From a virus (taxonomy: Duplodnaviria > Caudoviricetes), in IMG/VR virus record IMGVR_UViG_3300020045_014696, positions 1 through 39,948 of that record: a stretch of 39,948 nt of DNA. One strand, 5' to 3'. The translations under genes and the position numbers were made by a program. Positions 3,490 to 38,352 of this stretch are shown in pieces; the first letter of the stretch is position 1, and each line of letters starts with the position of its first letter. The notes below the pieces were generated by a model, which saw only the letters and a list, made by a program, of their open reading frames with translations, did not search any database and had not been told where the DNA came from.

Positions 3490-4463
3490 AAAAACCGAAA
3501 TTATCTGATACGTTAGCAACAATAAAAAAACGCTTTGGGAGCGAATCTGTGATGATGTTAAATGAAAAACCTAGTGTCGATATCGATACTATTCCTACAG
3601 GGTCTATCGGTTTAGATCGGGCGCTTGGGGTGGGTGGTTTGCCTAGAGGTCGAATTGTGGAGATTTTTGGACCCGAGGCTTCGGGCAAAACGACCCTTGC
3701 TTTGCACGTAATCGCCGAGGCGCAGAGAAAGGGTGGCATGTGTGTTTTTATTGACGCAGAACACGCATTAGACCCCTTATACGCGAAGCGTATCGGGGTT
3801 GTAACCGAGGAATTGGTCATATCACAACCAAATGGAGGTGAAGAAGCGCTACAAATCGTCCAACAGTTCGTGAAAGATGGGACAGTTTCGGTGGTGGTTG
3901 TGGACTCGGTTGCGGCGCTTACGCCACGCTCCGAGATCGATGGGCAGATTGGTGATATGAGTATGGGGGCGCAGGCGCGCCTTATGAGTCAGGCGATGCG
4001 GATGCTCACGGGTGAAATCTCACGGACAAATACCTTGGTAATTTTTATTAATCAGATTCGCACAAATATCGGAGGTTATGGAAATCCTGAAACGACCGCG
4101 GGGGGTAGAGCATTAAAATTTTATGCTTCTGTCCGTATCGACATTAGGCGCACGGCGGTAATAAAGTCAGGTGATGAATCTATCGGGTCGCAGTCGAAAG
4201 CGAAGGTTGTGAAGAATAAAGTTGCAGCACCATTCCGAGAGGCAGAATTTCAGATTATGTATGGTGAAGGCATATCAAAGGCGGGAGAGATTTTGACTTT
4301 GGGTGAAATGTTAAAGGTCGTTGAAAAAAGTGGGTCGCATTACAGTTATGGTGATACGAAGCTTGGGAATGGGTATGATGCTTCGAGAAAATTCCTTCGA
4401 GAAAATACGACTGTTATGGACATGATCGCAGACGAAATTAGAAAAATTCATGCCGATATATAA
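3486..4463 (+). CDS. recA: RecA recombinase
   Basis: [21 protein letters not shown] (Walker A), [48 protein letters not shown]. Confidence 0.98.
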
Positions 4464-8433: not shown

Positions 8434-8694
8434 ATGGGTATTAATTTTTTGATTTTTGTTTCTGGAATTATTGTGGGGTTTTTGGTGGCTATGCTTGTGA
8501 TCGTGGTACTGGTTTTTTTCCGAAGAATTGTCGAACAAAAAGCGGTTGTCTTTGAAAATAAAATAAGTAGTTTGGGTCCACAACCAAAGGGGTTCATTTT
8601 CATACCCCCTGATGACGCAGAAGCGGCGAGGCAAGAGATTATCGAGAAAAATCGAGCGCTTGGGAAAGATACAAAATTATCAGAGCTTATATAA
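8434..8694 (+). CDS. Single-pass membrane protein
   Basis: Long N-terminal hydrophobic helix followed by RR. Confidence 0.75.
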   Translation: MGINFLIFVSGIIVGFLVAMLVIVVLVFFRRIVEQKAVVFENKISSLGPQPKGFIFIPPDDAEAARQEIIEKNRALGKDTKLSELI

Positions 8695-8701
8695 AAATCG
8701 T

Positions 8702-8986
8702 ATGGCAAAAAAAATTACTCCGCGGGCAAAGCAAGTGCTTGTAAAACCTGATGGGGTGGAGAGTCGCGAGTCAGAGTCTGGTATTATTACTCCATCGAAT
8801 ATTGAGCAGGAACAGAAAGCTATCGGCACGGTTATTGCTGTGGGGTCCGATATTAAGGATATCTACCGTGATGATCGGGTAATTTATGGTGCTTATGCGG
8901 GTGAGGTTATAAAGTTCCGCGAGGGTGGTAAAGATGTGGAGTATCGCATTTTATTCGACGAGGATATCCTCGCATTCATCGAATAG
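8702..8986 (+). CDS. groES: Co-chaperonin GroES (start corrected to ATG 8702)
   Basis: ITPRAKQVLVK...SGIITP...GTVIAVG...DRVIYGAYAG...ILFDEDILAFIE. Confidence 0.92.
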   Translation: MAKKITPRAKQVLVKPDGVESRESESGIITPSNIEQEQKAIGTVIAVGSDIKDIYRDDRVIYGAYAGEVIKFREGGKDVEYRILFDEDILAFIE

Positions 8987-8989
8987 GTC

Positions 8990-9112
8990 ATGGCAGTAGC
9001 ACAGATAAAATTCGAAATCATCAAATACGGAGCTATGTTCGGCTTTTTCAAAGAGAGAGGAACCTTTGTGGTGTACCTTGGTCCATTTATGATTATTTTT
9101 ACAAAGTTATGA
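8990..9112 (+). CDS. Small hypothetical protein (40 aa)
   Basis: MAVAQIKFEIIKYGAMFGFF...FTKL*, ATGA overlap with the next ORF. Confidence 0.5.
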   Translation: MAVAQIKFEIIKYGAMFGFFKERGTFVVYLGPFMIIFTKL

Positions 9113-9366
9113 GATACGGCCGAGATTTGGGATGCCGTTTCGGGCAACCGCACGACCTCAAAAACATTCACGAAAATCCGCATGTACTTTGGGAGGTGTG
9201 CAAGATTTGTGGGAAGCGGTTCAGGTGGAATAAAGGTTATAGGGGGCGGGTGGAGAATGCTGAATATTTGAGAGTCCATGTTCGAAATTATGCACAGCAG
9301 TTTGGAGCGACAAAGCGAATTTTTAATAAACTGTACGATCCTAAGAAATGCGAAATATTTATATGA
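9109..9366 (+). CDS. Zn-ribbon-like hypothetical protein
   Basis: C...H...CKIC motif; ATGA overlaps on both sides. Confidence 0.7.
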   Translation: MRYGRDLGCRFGQPHDLKNIHENPHVLWEVCKICGKRFRWNKGYRGRVENAEYLRVHVRNYAQQFGATKRIFNKLYDPKKCEIFI

Positions 9367-9548
9367 CCAGAGCAACAAATACAAGAATTTTCAGATATTT
9401 TGAGCAGGGTCAAATGGGAGCGTTGGTGAAGAGAGAGAGTCCGATTTCTGCTCAAGAAAAAAAATTTGTGGGAAAGTGTAAGTGTGGTCGGGAGTTATGG
9501 GCAAGTGCGGGACAAATTATTAGGACTAACAAATGTAGGCACAAATGA
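9363..9548 (+). CDS. Small Cys-rich hypothetical protein
   Basis: ATG 9363 overlaps the previous stop; CKCG...CRH; ATGA overlap with groEL. Confidence 0.6.
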   Translation: MTRATNTRIFRYFEQGQMGALVKRESPISAQEKKFVGKCKCGRELWASAGQIIRTNKCRHK

Positions 9549-11071
9549 ATCCGAATGAAACGATTGTGATCGAGGACGGTGTTCTCGACATTATAGAATC
9601 CGCAGTCAATAAGTTGGTTGATACTGTTCGTCCAACTTATGGGCCAGCGAGCAATAAGGTTATTATTGACAAGATGGCATATCGAATGGTCGTTGATGAT
9701 GGTGTGCAGATTGCCCGTGATTTCGAATTGCCAGACCCAGCGGAGAATGCGGTGGTGAAGATTATCCGTGAAACTGCTATTCGTACGAATGACATTGCGG
9801 GTGATGGGACCACTAGCTCGCTTATCATGCTTCAGGCCATTATCCGAGAAATTCGAAGGAAGACGAAAATTAATGGTCGCAAAATTGAAATCGAGTTGAA
9901 TAGGGGTATGGCAGAGGTGCGCGAGCAACTTCTAAAATCTGCTAAAAAAATAAAGACTCGTGAAGAGTTAAAAAAGGTTGCCCTTATTTCTTTTGACGAT
10001 GAGAAAATTGCCGACATGCTTGCTGATTTGTATTTCAAACTTGGAAAAGATGCGACTATCACTATTGATAAGTCACCAACGATGGACACGTTTATGGAGT
10101 TGGCAGATGGTATTGAAATTCCTCGGGGGTATATCAGTCCGTATATGATAAACAACCCAGAGCGTATGGAAACGGTGCTTGAAAAGCCGTATATCTTGAT
10201 GACGGATTATCGCCTTATGGAAGCGACGGATTTATTGCCTATTATGGAGAAAATGGCAAAGGCGAACAAGCGTGAGTTGGTCATAATTTGTGAGAATTTG
10301 GAGAATAGTGCGCTTGCAACGGCCGTGCTGAATCGAATACAGCAGAAATTTTTTACAGTTGCCATTCCAGTACCAGCGTACGATAACCGAAAAGTGAGGC
10401 TTGAGGATATAGCGCTCATGACGGGGGCGAAATTGTTTACTGCGGATAAGGGGGATAAGCTCGAGAATGCTGAACTTGCCGATCTTGGTCGTGCAGAGCG
10501 TTTTATTTGTCGAAAGGAGCATTCGATAATTATCGGTCCGAAAGGAAAAAAGGTTGATGTTTCTATGGCCATAAATTCTATTCGGTCCGCAATTACGAAT
10601 GAGCAGAAAGAGAAAGACCGAAAAGAGCTCGAGCAACGTCTTGCCGTGCTTACGAATAGTCTTGCGGTCATTAAAGTAGGGGCGCCGACTGAGAATGAAC
10701 AGAAAGCTCTTAAGTATAAAGTCGAGGATGCTGTGAATGCGGTAAAAGCGGCATATAAAAATGGTGTTGTTTGTGGCTCGGGGCTTGCTTTGGCGGGATT
10801 AAAAACATCCAGTCCGATTCTTAATGAAGCGTTGAAATATCCAGCGCGACAGTTGAGGGAAAATATGGGGTTAGATGATGTCGAGTATTTACAATCAGGT
10901 CATGCGTATAATGTCGTGACGCAGAAGGTAGGGCCTTATCTTGAGGTGGGGGTGGTCGATCCTGTGGATGTATTGATTGCGGGTGTTCAGAGCGCTGTTT
11001 CAATTGCTTCGGTGTTGGTTACGAGTTGCAAAATGATCGTGGAGAAGCCAAAAGATAAGGTTACGGAATAG
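9545..11071 (+). CDS. groEL: Chaperonin GroEL (divergent, 508 aa)
   Basis: TYGP, DDGVQIA, AGDGTTS, RGYISPY, AVIKVGAPTE, VEDAVNAVKAA, GVVDP. Confidence 0.96.
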   Translation: MNPNETIVIEDGVLDIIESAVNKLVDTVRPTYGPASNKVIIDKMAYRMVVDDGVQIARDFELPDPAENAVVKIIRETAIRTNDIAGDGTTSSLIMLQAIIREIRRKTKINGRKIEIELNRGMAEVREQLLKSAKKIKTREELKKVALISFDDEKIADMLADLYFKLGKDATITIDKSPTMDTFMELADGIEIPRGYISPYMINNPERMETVLEKPYILMTDYRLMEATDLLPIMEKMAKANKRELVIICENLENSALATAVLNRIQQKFFTVAIPVPAYDNRKVRLEDIALMTGAKLFTADKGDKLENAELADLGRAERFICRKEHSIIIGPKGKKVDVSMAINSIRSAITNEQKEKDRKELEQRLAVLTNSLAVIKVGAPTENEQKALKYKVEDAVNAVKAAYKNGVVCGSGLALAGLKTSSPILNEALKYPARQLRENMGLDDVEYLQSGHAYNVVTQKVGPYLEVGVVDPVDVLIAGVQSAVSIASVLVTSCKMIVEKPKDKVTE

Positions 11072-21748: not shown

Positions 21749-21797
21749 GTCTTCGCTTCACTCTGTCCCCTTCGGGGGGCAGGGATGAGGTGAAGAC
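21749..21797 (+). other. Long RNA hairpin with cUUCGg tetraloop (mRNA stabiliser or processing site)
   Basis: ~22-bp stem with four G-U pairs on the + strand; followed by an A run, not a U run. Confidence 0.7.
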
Positions 21798-35580: not shown

Positions 35581-36688
35581 GATTATAGGCGGTAAAAAAA
35601 ATACAGGGGCACTTTTGGATTTTCGGAGTCTTGAGGCGAAAATTAAAGATTATAAATTCCGTGAGGTGGTAGCGACGGTCAATGCTGTGCAGTGGGTAGA
35701 GAAACCGCAATCACAATGGCGAAAGTTCCCAGAGCAAAACCAATATATGCAGTTTTCTTGTGTAGCGCAGACAGTCAGAAAAATGATGCGGATAATTTAT
35801 TATTTGCGAACAGGAGAGATGGTGGATTTTTCGTCTTCACATCTTTATAAACGGCGCGCGAATGCCCCGTTCCCTGGGATGATTGGTTCAGATGCTTTAG
35901 AAATTGCTCGAAGGAAAGGAGTAACGCTCGAGAGTTTGCTTCCATCGGTGCAGGCAAATGATAAGGCGATCGACGCTTTAAAAGTTGAAGAATACAAAGA
36001 AGAAGTCGGTGCAGTTTTCAAAGTGCCGAATTATCTCATTATGGACGATGATATTGGAGATATCGAAGTGGCGGCATCGGTTGTTCAAACAACCAAAAAA
36101 GGCGTCATGGCGTGGTTTTTCTTTCAGGAAAATGAATGGAACTCATTCGTGCCAGTTATTCGGAATAATAGTTTGGAGTCTGGAGCGCCTGGAGTTTTGC
36201 GCCACTCGGTTACGATTGTGGATTATACGCTCTGGGAGGGTAAGAGGGCGGTTATTATTGAGGATAGTGCATGGTTTGGTGGGATTAATCGCCGTGTCAT
36301 TACCGAGGACTTCTTTAAAGCGAGAAATTTCTTTTTGGCATATATGATTTCATTCCGTTTCGATGATCAATTGTCCGAAGTGCCACAATTACCGACACCG
36401 CAAGCAATACTTGCGGATCCGAATAGGCCAAGATACACCTTTAATAAAGACTTGGCGTTTTCTGTGACGTTCTTCACAGATAAAGATGTTGTCGCACTGC
36501 AGAATATTCTAAAATATGAAAAGGTGTTTCCGTCTAACATAGCCTCGAGTGGTTATTTCGGCTCCATTACGGCAAAAGCCGTTCTTACATGGCAAAAGAA
36601 TCACGGGCTAAGCGATCTGGTTCCATTCCAGGGTCGAGTCGTCGAGGCTTTCACAAGGGGAAAACTTAATGAAATCTACGGGGCGTAG
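35552..36688 (+). CDS. Putative endolysin: papain-like (C1) peptidase plus peptidoglycan-binding domain
   Basis: Q...SC (QNQYMQFSCVAQ), HSV, EDSAW; C-terminal DVVALQ.IL...GYFGSITAKAV..WQK.HGL. Start likely ATG 35552 or 35558. Confidence 0.78.
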   Translation: MSMLRKILDRIIGGKKNTGALLDFRSLEAKIKDYKFREVVATVNAVQWVEKPQSQWRKFPEQNQYMQFSCVAQTVRKMMRIIYYLRTGEMVDFSSSHLYKRRANAPFPGMIGSDALEIARRKGVTLESLLPSVQANDKAIDALKVEEYKEEVGAVFKVPNYLIMDDDIGDIEVAASVVQTTKKGVMAWFFFQENEWNSFVPVIRNNSLESGAPGVLRHSVTIVDYTLWEGKRAVIIEDSAWFGGINRRVITEDFFKARNFFLAYMISFRFDDQLSEVPQLPTPQAILADPNRPRYTFNKDLAFSVTFFTDKDVVALQNILKYEKVFPSNIASSGYFGSITAKAVLTWQKNHGLSDLVPFQGRVVEAFTRGKLNEIYGA

Positions 36689-36719
36689 GAGTATAATTAT
36701 AAGGTAATAAAAAATCACC

Positions 36720-36878
36720 ATGATTACATCAACTTGGAATTTTTTCAAAGGAAAGAAAACACATGTCGTCGGTATTCTCATGATCATTCTCGGTTTCCTT
36801 AATGGGGATAACCAGATGATATTGGAAGGCATAGGATTTATGACTGTACGGTCAGCAATTGCTAACCAGACGGTATAA
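36720..36878 (+). CDS. Putative holin (52 aa, not in ORF track)
   Basis: MITSTWNFFKGKKTHVVGILMIILGFL...ILEGIGFMTVRSAI; two hydrophobic segments, next to the endolysin. Confidence 0.7.
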   Translation: MITSTWNFFKGKKTHVVGILMIILGFLNGDNQMILEGIGFMTVRSAIANQTV

Positions 36879-36946
36879 CCTATAGGGCGGTCCCCCGCCC
36901 CTTTCCTGCGAAATGACTCGTTGGAAAGGCATGGGGGAACTGAACT

Positions 36947-37159
36947 ATGCAACGATGCCACTACTGTGGCGCTTGGGTCGATGTCCTCGACTGTTTGCAC
37001 CACAGAGGAAAAGTCTACTGCACCCTTTTGTGCATTGGACGAGATAGGACTCATGAAAAACCACAAAACGATGATCGCCAGAAAGAAAGGCAAAAAAATA
37101 ATCAAAGTTGTGTTCCAACCAAAGCGCCAGTCTTCGTTCCGAGCGATAATTCATCGTAA
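36947..37159 (+). CDS. Small metal-binding protein (CxxC...CxxxC)
   Basis: MQRCHYCG...YCTLLC; SD-like GGGGGA 8 nt upstream. Confidence 0.5.
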   Translation: MQRCHYCGAWVDVLDCLHHRGKVYCTLLCIGRDRTHEKPQNDDRQKERQKNNQSCVPTKAPVFVPSDNSS

Positions 37160-37241
37160 CGATGCCTGGATTCCGCAACGGGACTGATCTACGGTGGTTC
37201 TCGTCCGCCAACCCTATAGGAATAAGAGCGAGAATACCACC

Positions 37242-37269
37242 ATGGAGAGGCTAATACCTCTCCGTTTTT
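37242..37269 (+). terminator. Intrinsic terminator ending the late/lysis region
   Basis: GGAGAGG-ctaata-CCTCTCC followed by GTTTTT. Confidence 0.8.
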
Positions 37270-37291
37270 ATGGCTATATAGAGGGGTAAAG

Positions 37292-37336
37292 TTACTCACA
37301 TGTAGATTTGACAATGCCGAGCGCTTGGTATAGAAT
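37292..37336 (+). promoter_or_regulatory. Strong sigma70-type promoter with operator and DnaA-box-like 9-mer
   Basis: TTACTCACA 37292-37300; TTGACA 37308-37313; 17-nt spacer; TAGAAT 37331-37336; operator TGCCGAGCGCTTGGTA 37315-37330. Confidence 0.88.
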
Positions 37337-37385
37337 GGTTTCAGGTTGGGTTCCTCGAAAAGAGAATAGGGGTAATAAAAAACTC

Positions 37386-37478
37386 ATGAGAAAACTCTCA
37401 AAGGAAATCGTTAAGAAGATTTTAGTCCTTCACAGTCAAGGAAAGAGTGAGAGAGCCATCGCATTGGTGGGCAGGTAA
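37386..37478 (+). pseudogene. Truncated HTH-like ORF (30 aa)
   Basis: MRKLSKEIVKKILVLHSQGKSERAIALVGR* stops where the recognition helix should begin. Confidence 0.45.
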
Positions 37479-37731
37479 AAATTATCCTTCGGGTTACATG
37501 ATTTCTCATGGTGGGAATCATTACCAGAATATGGATATGCACTCACGCCGAGCAGTTGCAGAAAGTGGAGTGCTAGGGATGAATGGTTTCCCAACAAGAG
37601 TTCAGACCTATATCGATTAACCCTCGCGTATTGTCTTCCGACTCCTCGCGAGGGGGTCGGGCGAAAGTAAATTAAAAAATACCCTATTCAGTTATGAGCG
37701 AATCTCCGAGGTTCGTTGAGAGTTGTAAAAA

Positions 37732-37840
37732 ATTCGGTTATCCAAATCCCCGCGGTCCGAGGTCCCTTTCTCCATAGGGGGCATAGTACATCTCCGTAGG
37801 GAGCATCGTACACCTCGGACGGGGGTTTGGATGACTGAAT
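37732..37840 (+). ncRNA. Highly structured RNA element of unknown family
   Basis: 20-bp outer stem with three G-U pairs, 3-nt bulge, 9-bp stem, three-way junction with two hairpins. Confidence 0.65.
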
Positions 37841-37929
37841 AAAAGGTCGAATATTAAAAAGTAATTTTCGCAAACAGAGTAGCTACGAAAAATTGTACAT
37901 ACTCTCGGCGCGGAAAAATATAAAATATC

Positions 37930-38217
37930 ATGATGACGAAAAGTGGTCAGTTGCACCTTACTAAGACGGATCGTAAGTGCCTTCAGGAGATGTTGGCTCA
38001 TGTCAGGGCCGATTTATCTTTTAAAGAGGGCGGTTCGTTTGTGGACCTAGATAATGATAAATTTGATGGGAAAGCGGCAAAGAGGGCGGTGGAGGGGATT
38101 CGAATTGTGGAGTGGATTCTTGAGCATGCAGATTTTAGCAGGCGTGAAAGTGATATGGCGGTAGAAAAAAGGAACAAAGCAAATGTTGCCTTGTTAAAAG
38201 TTTTGAACGTTAAGTAA
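37930..38217 (+). CDS. Hypothetical protein
   Basis: 95-aa ORF, AT-rich start context. Confidence 0.65.
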   Translation: MMTKSGQLHLTKTDRKCLQEMLAHVRADLSFKEGGSFVDLDNDKFDGKAAKRAVEGIRIVEWILEHADFSRRESDMAVEKRNKANVALLKVLNVK

Positions 38218-38352
38218 CATTAGAATGAAATATACTAAAGTTGGTAAAAAATTCTGGGGTGAGTACCATAGTACCCTTATTGAGAACAGGGTAAAGTTTG
38301 TGGTGTTGGTGATATCTGTATTGGTGGTGTCTTGCTTAATAGCATCAGTCAG

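What the first reader, a model, noticed from the sequence alone, without database searches (positions are those of the whole stretch)
37680..37840. Stable three-way-junction RNA with a duplicated competing 5' strand (possible RNA switch or ncRNA)
Seen: 37732-37751 pairs with 37821-37840 (20 bp; all three non-canonical pairs are G-U on +, implying RNA-level selection); 37755-37763 pairs with 37812-37820; two inner hairpins (CCCT/AGGG; GTAC..CTCC-gtag-GGAG..GTAC). Upstream, ATTCAGTTAT (37686-37695) and TCCGAGGT (37705-37712) repeat the two 5' arms in the same order and could pair with the same 3' strand, giving mutually exclusive folds. It lies in the transcript from the best consensus promoter in the window. 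I do not recognise the family.
Basis: partly seen in the sequence, partly recalled or inferred. Interest (0 to 1): 0.7.

Follow-up and report, generated by a model that had tools for sequence, protein, structure and literature searches.

The report
Long-stem RNA cassette in phage leader
A virus that likely infects tiny Patescibacteria carries, ahead of its early genes, a 109-base stretch predicted to fold into a long RNA stem capped by two hairpins; it is likely a cutting signal for the host enzyme RNase III rather than a full on/off switch, and related viruses carry stems of similar build but different sequence.

Summary
The structure is real: 37732-37840 is the best-folding 110-nt stretch of this 40-kb tailed phage (20-bp helix with three G-U pairs, 3-nt bulge, 9-bp helix, two hairpins). 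No Rfam family and no sequence homologue was found, so covariation could not be tested. The full switch is not supported: pairing both upstream copies costs 19 kcal/mol and the inner swap has probability about 0. Only a swap of the outer 10 bp is feasible (probability 0-0.23, depending on the fragment folded). Closed 18-22-bp G-U-bearing stems recur in non-coding sense DNA of related phages (12 in 44 records, none in 8 shuffles), often just after a promoter or beside tRNAs; one encloses a tRNA-like cloverleaf. RNase III is in 31 of 31 genomes of the likely host class; Ffh and Ro60 are in none. Best reading (about 0.5): an RNase III-type processing stalk that would release a small three-way-junction RNA and give the early mRNA a new 5' end.

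The parts
37308..37336 (+). Sigma-70-type promoter (TTGACA-17-TAGAAT) whose spacer and -10 overlap a palindrome-like motif repeated at other promoters of this phage; likely source of the transcript
   Evidence: transcription not shown
37386..37478 (+). 30-codon ORF resembling the first two helices of a helix-turn-helix domain; one in-frame stop in a 95-codon frame, possibly a gene remnant
   Evidence: HTH_SB E 0.0016, HTH_38 E 0.007, both under cut-off; no relative for the read-through frame
37621..37654 (+). GC-rich hairpin upstream of the duplicate, no U-tract
   Evidence: fold
37681..37717 (+). Partial duplicate of the 5' arm (37686-37695 and 37705-37712); 37697-37717 folds on itself; 37681-37683 could pair with 37845-37847 in the outer-swap form
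37732..37751 (+). 5' strand of the 20-bp closing helix
37752..37763 (+). 3-nt bulge and 5' strand of the 9-bp inner helix
37764..37811 (+). Enclosed cargo: hairpin 1 (37764-37780), 5-nt linker, hairpin 2 with GUAG loop (37786-37811); three-way junction with the inner helix
37812..37840 (+). 3' strand of the inner (37812-37820) and closing (37821-37840) helices
37842..37850 (+). AAAGGTCGA leader motif; GGUCGA is complementary to a host 16S rRNA segment; candidate ribosome-docking site
37868..37913 (+). Conserved leader hairpin: P1 37868-37871/37910-37913, internal loop AAAC/CGGC, P2 37876-37881/37900-37905; 16 nt before the start codon
37930..38217 (+). First gene after the element, 95 aa, small unnamed family
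   Evidence: 21 representatives at E<=0.001, itself included; no PHROG hit, no Pfam hit under E 0.1

Best explanation
The stretch is predicted to fold into a two-turn RNA stalk (20 bp, a 3-nt bulge, 9 bp) around a two-hairpin cargo in the likely early transcript of a phage that likely infects Patescibacteria, and it likely works as a processing site for host RNase III. A staggered cut in the 20-bp helix would release a roughly 85-90-nt three-way-junction RNA, still clamped by about 17-19 bp, and would give the downstream early mRNA a new 5' end 10-15 nt ahead of the AAAGGUCGA motif and the conserved leader hairpin. Shown: the pairing, its strand bias, the recurrence of such stalks in related phages, RNase III in the host class, and the two downstream motifs. 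Inferred: host, transcription, cleavage, and any role of the cargo. The upstream duplicate is most likely a remnant of a tandem duplication that at most exchanges the outer 10 bp.
For: Fold and controls. RNA fold favours the + strand by 12.5 kcal/mol, DNA fold by 5.4. Class: in 221,116 non-coding bases of 43 related records plus the window, 12 uninterrupted closing stems of 18-22 bp on the sense strand (9 records, window included; each with 2-6 G-U), 4 of 18 bp or more on the antisense strand, none in 8 dinucleotide shuffles. In a wider set, 38 stems lie in 0.53 Mb of non-coding DNA against 17 in the other 2.24 Mb (6 mixed); 8 of 20 G-U-bearing sense stems begin 2-16 nt after a -10-like hexamer, against 0 of 7 antisense and 0 of 17 coding. 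L255 3721-4267 holds four back-to-back stems, one around a tRNA-like cloverleaf (tRNA clan E 0.0087, under the gathering score). L359 repeats the order stem, AAAGGUCGA, leader hairpin, AUG. RNase III over cut-off in 31 of 31 genomes of the class of G038. E. coli RNase III substrates typically show two helical turns (PMC1540722, passages; 22 bp in PMC3867540, passages); T7 early mRNA carries five such signals. Predicted inner products stay folded at -47 and -41 kcal/mol.
Against: No homologue of the element, so no covariation: nhmmer over 336 and later about 250 loci, model R1 over 197 sources and 55 record searches, BLAST over 32 records and GenBank phages. The stems of the class share no sequence, so the class is one of shape only. 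Unlike 8 of those stems, this one starts about 390 nt after its promoter. Two of the four loci with the leader hairpin (L166, L343) have no stalk before it (by reading), and stalks are not enriched before AAAGGTCG in general (4 of 64 against 7 of 192 shuffled). Removing the 5' part does not raise the predicted accessibility of GGUCGA (0.19-0.27 against 0.48 in the full leader) or of the start codon, so a gain in translation is not supported by folding. The RNase III box sequences could not be placed. The host is inferred from protein relatives.
Confidence: 0.5

Rival explanations
1. The 109-nt unit is an uncut, stable small RNA gene co-transcribed with early genes; its paired ends only protect it, and it acts in trans as a decoy for a double-stranded-RNA-binding or other host protein.
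For: The GC-rich inner helix and two hairpins are more than a cleavage site needs. Similar units sit in tRNA clusters in L403, L405, L166 and L255.
Against: No promoter of its own and no U-tract after it on the + strand. The obvious protein partners are missing from the host class: Ffh 0 of 31, Ro60/TROVE 0 of 31 (incomplete genomes). An uninterrupted 20-bp helix would be exposed to RNase III.
Confidence: 0.2
2. A partial switch: the upstream copy 37681-37695 displaces the outer 10 bp, shortening the continuous helix from 20 to 10 bp (likely too short to be cut) and pairing the GGU of the AAAGGUCGA motif, so that folding sets processing and translation together.
For: Outer-swap form -72.0 against -72.4 kcal/mol in 37670-37860; probability up to 0.23 in short fragments. 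The copy has A-U where the near arm has G-U. An 11-bp helix is the stated minimum for E. coli RNase III (PMC1540722, passage).
Against: Probability 0.001 or less with the whole leader, 0.013 with a 200-nt span limit. No trigger found. Of the 69 non-coding stems scored (output cut, about 45 seen), I saw only one other with an upstream copy beating all 100 shuffles. Tandem units in L403 show competing arms arising simply by duplication.
Confidence: 0.12
3. A stability or boundary element that is not cut: a roadblock to exonucleases for the upstream or downstream RNA, or a terminator for antisense transcription, since the minus-strand fold is followed by a run of T.
For: Six A at 37727-37732 give a U-tract after the minus-strand fold, which still folds at -49 kcal/mol.
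Against: Not called by the terminator scan; the G-U pairs become A-C mismatches on that strand; far longer than a terminator hairpin.
Confidence: 0.1
4. A DNA-level element: a miniature inverted-repeat element or remnant linked to the truncated helix-turn-helix ORF, or a single-strand or cruciform origin signal.
For: Inverted ends; L166 and L343 lack the roughly 480-nt insert between promoter and leader hairpin; the 30-aa ORF weakly matches transposase-type HTH models.
Against: One copy in the genome and none in the loci searched; no target-site duplication beyond A runs; all three departures from a DNA palindrome are G-U on the transcribed strand; class-level sense bias 12 against 4.
Confidence: 0.08

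Closest known systems
RNase III processing signals of phage early mRNA (T7 R sites; PMC3867540 passages; lambda N leader recalled)
   Same: A helix of about two turns with G-U pairs and a bulge, between genes of an early polycistronic transcript, just upstream of a translation start.
   Different: Capped by a three-way junction rather than a simple loop; no sequence relation tested or found; host lineage uncultured here; followed by a non-Shine-Dalgarno motif and a second conserved hairpin.
Leader-trailer processing stalks of rRNA operons, and stable non-tRNA species of the T4 tRNA cluster (both recalled)
   Same: Paired 5' and 3' flanks enclose a folded cargo; in relatives the stalks come back to back and beside or around tRNA-like RNAs.
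   Different: The cargo here is only 48 nt plus a 9-bp helix, matches no Rfam family, and the window has no tRNA gene.
P1/P7 C4 and P4 CI antisense RNAs (recalled)
   Same: A small structured RNA in a phage leader with complementary stretches upstream on its own transcript.
   Different: There the targeting segments are single-stranded; here the complementary strand is buried in a 29-bp helix; no Rfam match.
SRP RNA S domain, Y RNA and phi29 pRNA (shape resemblances recalled)
   Same: About 110 nt, paired ends, three-way junction; a bulge in the stalk as in pRNA.
   Different: No Rfam match at E<=10; Ffh and Ro60 not found in 31 host-class genomes; the phage has small and large terminase genes, unlike phi29.

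Membership tests
RNase III processing site | Double helix of about 22 bp (at least 11 bp) | tested here: met
   20 bp uninterrupted plus 9 bp after a 3-nt bulge; size rule from PMC1540722 and PMC3867540 passages
RNase III processing site | Lies on a transcribed strand | tested here: inconclusive
   Sense to all genes and 395 nt after a consensus promoter; no RNA run listed, which is no evidence either way
RNase III processing site | Host encodes RNase III | tested here: met
   31 of 31 genomes of the class of G038; host class inferred
RNase III processing site | Proximal and distal box base pairs at the right spacing | tested here: inconclusive
   Box rules read as text only, figure not held; the paper notes boxes may vary across phylogeny; not placed on this helix
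RNase III processing site | Actual staggered cleavage | not testable with these tools
   needs an enzyme assay or end mapping
Two-state RNA switch (riboswitch or attenuator) | Two folds of similar energy | tested here: not met
   Full alternative 19 kcal/mol worse, inner swap probability 0.000; only the outer 10 bp come close
Two-state RNA switch (riboswitch or attenuator) | Expression platform (terminator or start site) gated by the swap | tested here: inconclusive
   No terminator; the outer swap pairs 3 nt of AAAGGUCGA
SRP RNA | Helix 8 motif and Rfam match; Ffh in the host | tested here: not met
   Ffh 0 of 31
Y RNA / YrlA | Rfam match, bulged Ro-binding helix or tRNA-like domain; Ro60 in host or phage | tested here: not met
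   inner helix is 9 of 9 Watson-Crick; TROVE 0 of 31
Self-cleaving ribozymes in Rfam | Conserved catalytic core | tested here: not met
   no match at gathering or at E<=10; cleavage itself not testable
MITE / dispersed repeat | Several copies, target-site duplication | tested here: not met
   one copy; only A runs at the flanks
C4/CI antisense RNA | Rfam match; single-stranded targeting segments with targets up- and downstream | tested here: not met
   complementary strand is paired; no downstream copy (downstream duplex -6.7, 95 of 100 shuffles as good)

The most novel reading that the evidence does not exclude
Patescibacteria phages use an undescribed modular leader: a closed stalk with swappable folded cargo, a 16S-complementary AAAGGUCGA docking site and a conserved protein-binding hairpin before the AUG. 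In this phage an upstream copy swaps the outer 10 bp, turning RNase III cleavage off and covering the docking site in one move, so that release of a small RNA and translation of the first early genes are coupled.
Probability: 0.12. Interest if true: 0.8.

Novelty: new variant of a known kind. Interest (0 to 1): 0.47.

Why it matters
Little is known about how phages of Patescibacteria control gene expression, and these hosts often lack an ordinary anti-Shine-Dalgarno end (2 of 3 16S genes read here). If the stalks are RNase III sites, these phages process their transcripts and release small folded RNAs of unknown function from a recurring cassette. The element gives a short, purely in vitro test (one RNA, one enzyme), and the neighbouring covarying hairpin is a new candidate cis-regulatory family. 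As a single unconserved element without expression data it is of moderate interest.

Tried and rejected
Rfam: 0 matches at gathering in the whole window; 4 chance-level matches at E<=10 in 36650-38300, among them RT-17 at E 6.3. No tRNA or tmRNA. Homologue hunts that found nothing: blastn of 37250-37940 against GenBank phages (18 short chance hits); nhmmer; single-sequence model R1 (no positive control other than the window, so weak); BLAST over 32 records (2 hits in one record, to the A/T-rich flank). Single-protein scans with three neighbouring proteins gave no loci. Sequencing runs: none was listed, no RNA holder listed. A pattern scan for the leader hairpin gave 4 loci in viral contigs, 1 already known and 3 without the pairing, and 1 of 401 host-class genomes, the known one. 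Model R2 had a structure string shifted by one column and was not used. No relatives of the 95-aa gene family or of the 30-aa ORF in 421 loci. Neither the element nor the leader shares more than 10 nt with three host 16S genes. Best in-genome partner of hairpin 1 (near 21760) was not tested against a control and is not used. A 27-codon ORF at 37694-37777 runs through the 5' arm; nothing supports it as a leader peptide. An 87-codon antisense ORF (37738-38001) was not searched. Literature: searches showed no paper describing this element, these stems or the leader hairpin (listings only). PMC10690425: passages read; 6 supplementary files searched for three contig ids and three motifs without a hit, files 1, 2 and 4 not searched, so the leader hairpin may be among its candidates. 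PMC9297842: term search matched only its reference list.

Full report
Setting. The window is a whole 39,948-base virus record. All called genes run on the + strand: replication and recombination genes, GroES/GroEL, terminases, head, tail and a peptidoglycan-binding C1-type peptidase, probably the lysin. The capsid protein has 94 relatives in IMG/VR, the 80 kept at 70-88% identity. Named relatives of the peptidase are from Patescibacteria, and 11 of 14 genome contigs that carry it have Patescibacteria-group titles. The host is therefore inferred, not shown. The finding lies between the lysis genes (end 36878) and the first small early-type genes (from 37930).

The observation. Every stated pairing is present: 20 bp with three G-U pairs, a 3-nt bulge, 9 Watson-Crick pairs, and two hairpins that make a three-way junction. 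The 191-nt region has z = -5.47 and beats 200 of 200 shuffles. The 110-nt window at 37731 is the most stable of the genome by 11 kcal/mol. The + strand is favoured by 12.5 kcal/mol as RNA and 5.4 as DNA. Rfam has no match, there is no tRNA and no second copy.

The duplicate and the switch. The upstream copies pair with the 3' strand at -28.1 kcal/mol against -48.9 for the near arm; 5 of 3000 shuffles and at least 40 of 15,900 genome windows do as well. Forcing both copies to pair costs 19 kcal/mol. The inner swap has probability 0.000 at every transcript length where it could form and in every fragment folded, partly because that copy forms its own hairpin. The outer 10-bp swap differs: with three extra pairs onto the GGU at 37845-37847 it reaches -72.0 against -72.4 kcal/mol in 37670-37860, and its probability runs from 0.001 or less (whole leader) to 0.23 (short fragment). 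If the near arm is blocked, the upstream copy takes over the whole 3' strand, but no blocker is evident. So the full switch is rejected on thermodynamics and a partial one stays possible.

Homologues. None was found by BLAST, nhmmer or a one-sequence covariance model. These searches are limited: the closest relatives differ by 12% or more even in the capsid protein, and the model had no positive control but the window. Covariation of the element is untested.

A class of shape. I then asked whether related phages have stems of this build. In 521 non-coding segments (221,116 bases) of 43 related records plus the window, oriented by local gene direction, there are 12 uninterrupted closing stems of 18-22 bp enclosing 30 nt or more on the sense strand, in 9 records; 4 of 18 bp or more on the antisense strand; and none in 8 dinucleotide shuffles (low-complexity arms were filtered out). 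All 12 carry 2-6 G-U pairs, and none exceeds 22 bp. In a wider, partly overlapping set, 38 stems fall in 0.53 Mb of non-coding DNA, 17 in coding DNA and 6 are mixed; 8 of 20 G-U-bearing sense stems start 2-16 nt after a -10-like hexamer, against 0 of 7 antisense and 0 of 17 coding ones. Others stand by tRNAs: L166, L403 and L405. L255 3721-4267 has four stems back to back, one enclosing a tRNA-like cloverleaf (E 0.0087, below gathering). L403 has tandem stems with related arms that can pair across units, which shows how a competing arm can arise by duplication alone. The stems share no sequence with one another or with the window.

Which host machinery fits. In 31 genomes of the class of G038, RNase III is found in 31, Ffh in 0 and Ro60/TROVE in 0; these genomes are incomplete, so the zeros mean 'not found'. 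E. coli RNase III substrates typically show two helical turns and need at least 11 bp (PMC1540722, passages); the ideal substrate spans 22 bp and T7 early mRNA has five processing signals (PMC3867540, passages). The 18-22-bp lengths fit that footprint. This is inference from size and context; no cut was shown.

One base after the helix comes AAAGGTCGA (37842-37850). AAAGGTCG occurs 147 times in the phage loci against 34-78 for four permuted words; of 67 intergenic distinct sites, 58 had a downstream ATG-started ORF, and 32 of those 58 lie 20-59 nt before it. In this window GGTCG precedes only 7 of 48 starts within 100 nt. Next, 37868-37913 is a hairpin also found before the first gene after a promoter in L166 and L343: 30 of 30 cells paired, 3 of 10 pairs with two-sided changes, 18 of 500 shuffles as high, no slid control with a two-sided change. 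A model of the three found a fourth, independent candidate ending on an AUG in L359 (E 0.34); with it 34 of 36 cells pair and 4 of 500 shuffles reach the score. With four sequences this is a candidate, not a proven family. Folding this hairpin would bring the motif from 80 nt to about 35 nt from the AUG (inference). In L359 the order is the same as here: promoter, a closed 92-nt unit (17 bp interrupted, z -3.6), AAAGGUCGA, hairpin, AUG, though its sequence is unrelated (973 of 1000 shuffles align as well). L166 and L343 lack the stalk, and stalks are not enriched before the motif overall (4 of 64 against 7 of 192).

Mechanism and verdict. Most likely (0.5) the element is an RNase III-type stalk that would cut the early transcript, free a small three-way-junction RNA and start the downstream mRNA just before the docking motif. 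Against a simple translational gain, predicted accessibility of the motif does not rise after the cut. Rivals: an uncut decoy RNA (0.2), the partial switch (0.12), a stability or antisense-termination element (0.1), a DNA element (0.08). Earlier notes of this scan describe long processing stems in other phages; I reached this reading before seeing them and they are unchecked, so they are not support, but they do suggest the kind is widespread. Verdict: a real RNA structure, a new variant of a known kind, interest 0.47.

Noticed in passing
window 37868-37913; L166 11021-10957 (-); L343 7218-7278; L359 4783-4714 (-): Covarying leader hairpin with an AAAC/CRGC-type internal loop directly before the AUG of the first gene after a promoter, ahead of four different genes; no Rfam match in the three regions scanned at E-value level or in L343 at gathering level not tested; candidate new cis-regulatory family.
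   Followed up: partly
window 1538, 6738, 7997, 37315, 39142: A palindrome-like word (TACCGA-N4-TTGGTA, up to 2 mismatches) overlaps the spacer and -10 of five promoter-like sites; versions with at most 1 mismatch occur in 14 stretches of related records. Likely a phage regulator site.
   Followed up: partly
L417, L418, L419 (16S genes of G088, G099, G096): Two of three host-class 16S genes end without the usual anti-Shine-Dalgarno sequence; all three carry the segment complementary to GGUCGA.
   Followed up: partly
L255 3721-4267: Four back-to-back long stems, one enclosing a long-variable-arm tRNA-like cloverleaf missed by ARAGORN and by Rfam's gathering score.
   Followed up: partly
L403 2785-3022, 4174-4362, 3210 and 4428: Tandem long stems with related arms and different inserts around two tRNAs, plus a roughly 60-nt exact repeat at two places.
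   Followed up: partly
L285 7584-7704 (-), L283, L295, L267: LOOT RNA (RF03000) matches; the strand 3' of the motif pairs back into it as a 21-27-bp stem, an alternative to the Rfam fold.
   Followed up: no
L323 about 3490-3565 (also L196): An upstream segment pairs with AAGGUCGA itself, a possible translational off-state of the motif.
   Followed up: no
window 36891-36938 and 37186-37265: Two further structured stretches after the holin-like ORF: a 21-nt-arm hairpin and a stem followed by a terminator-like hairpin; the latter is 73% identical over 26 nt to part of the cargo, possibly chance.
   Followed up: no
window 37386-37673: A 95-codon frame with one internal stop, starting with an HTH-like segment; no relatives found.
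   Followed up: partly
window 8612-11071: The phage and most complete relatives carry GroES and GroEL just ahead of the terminase module.
   Followed up: no
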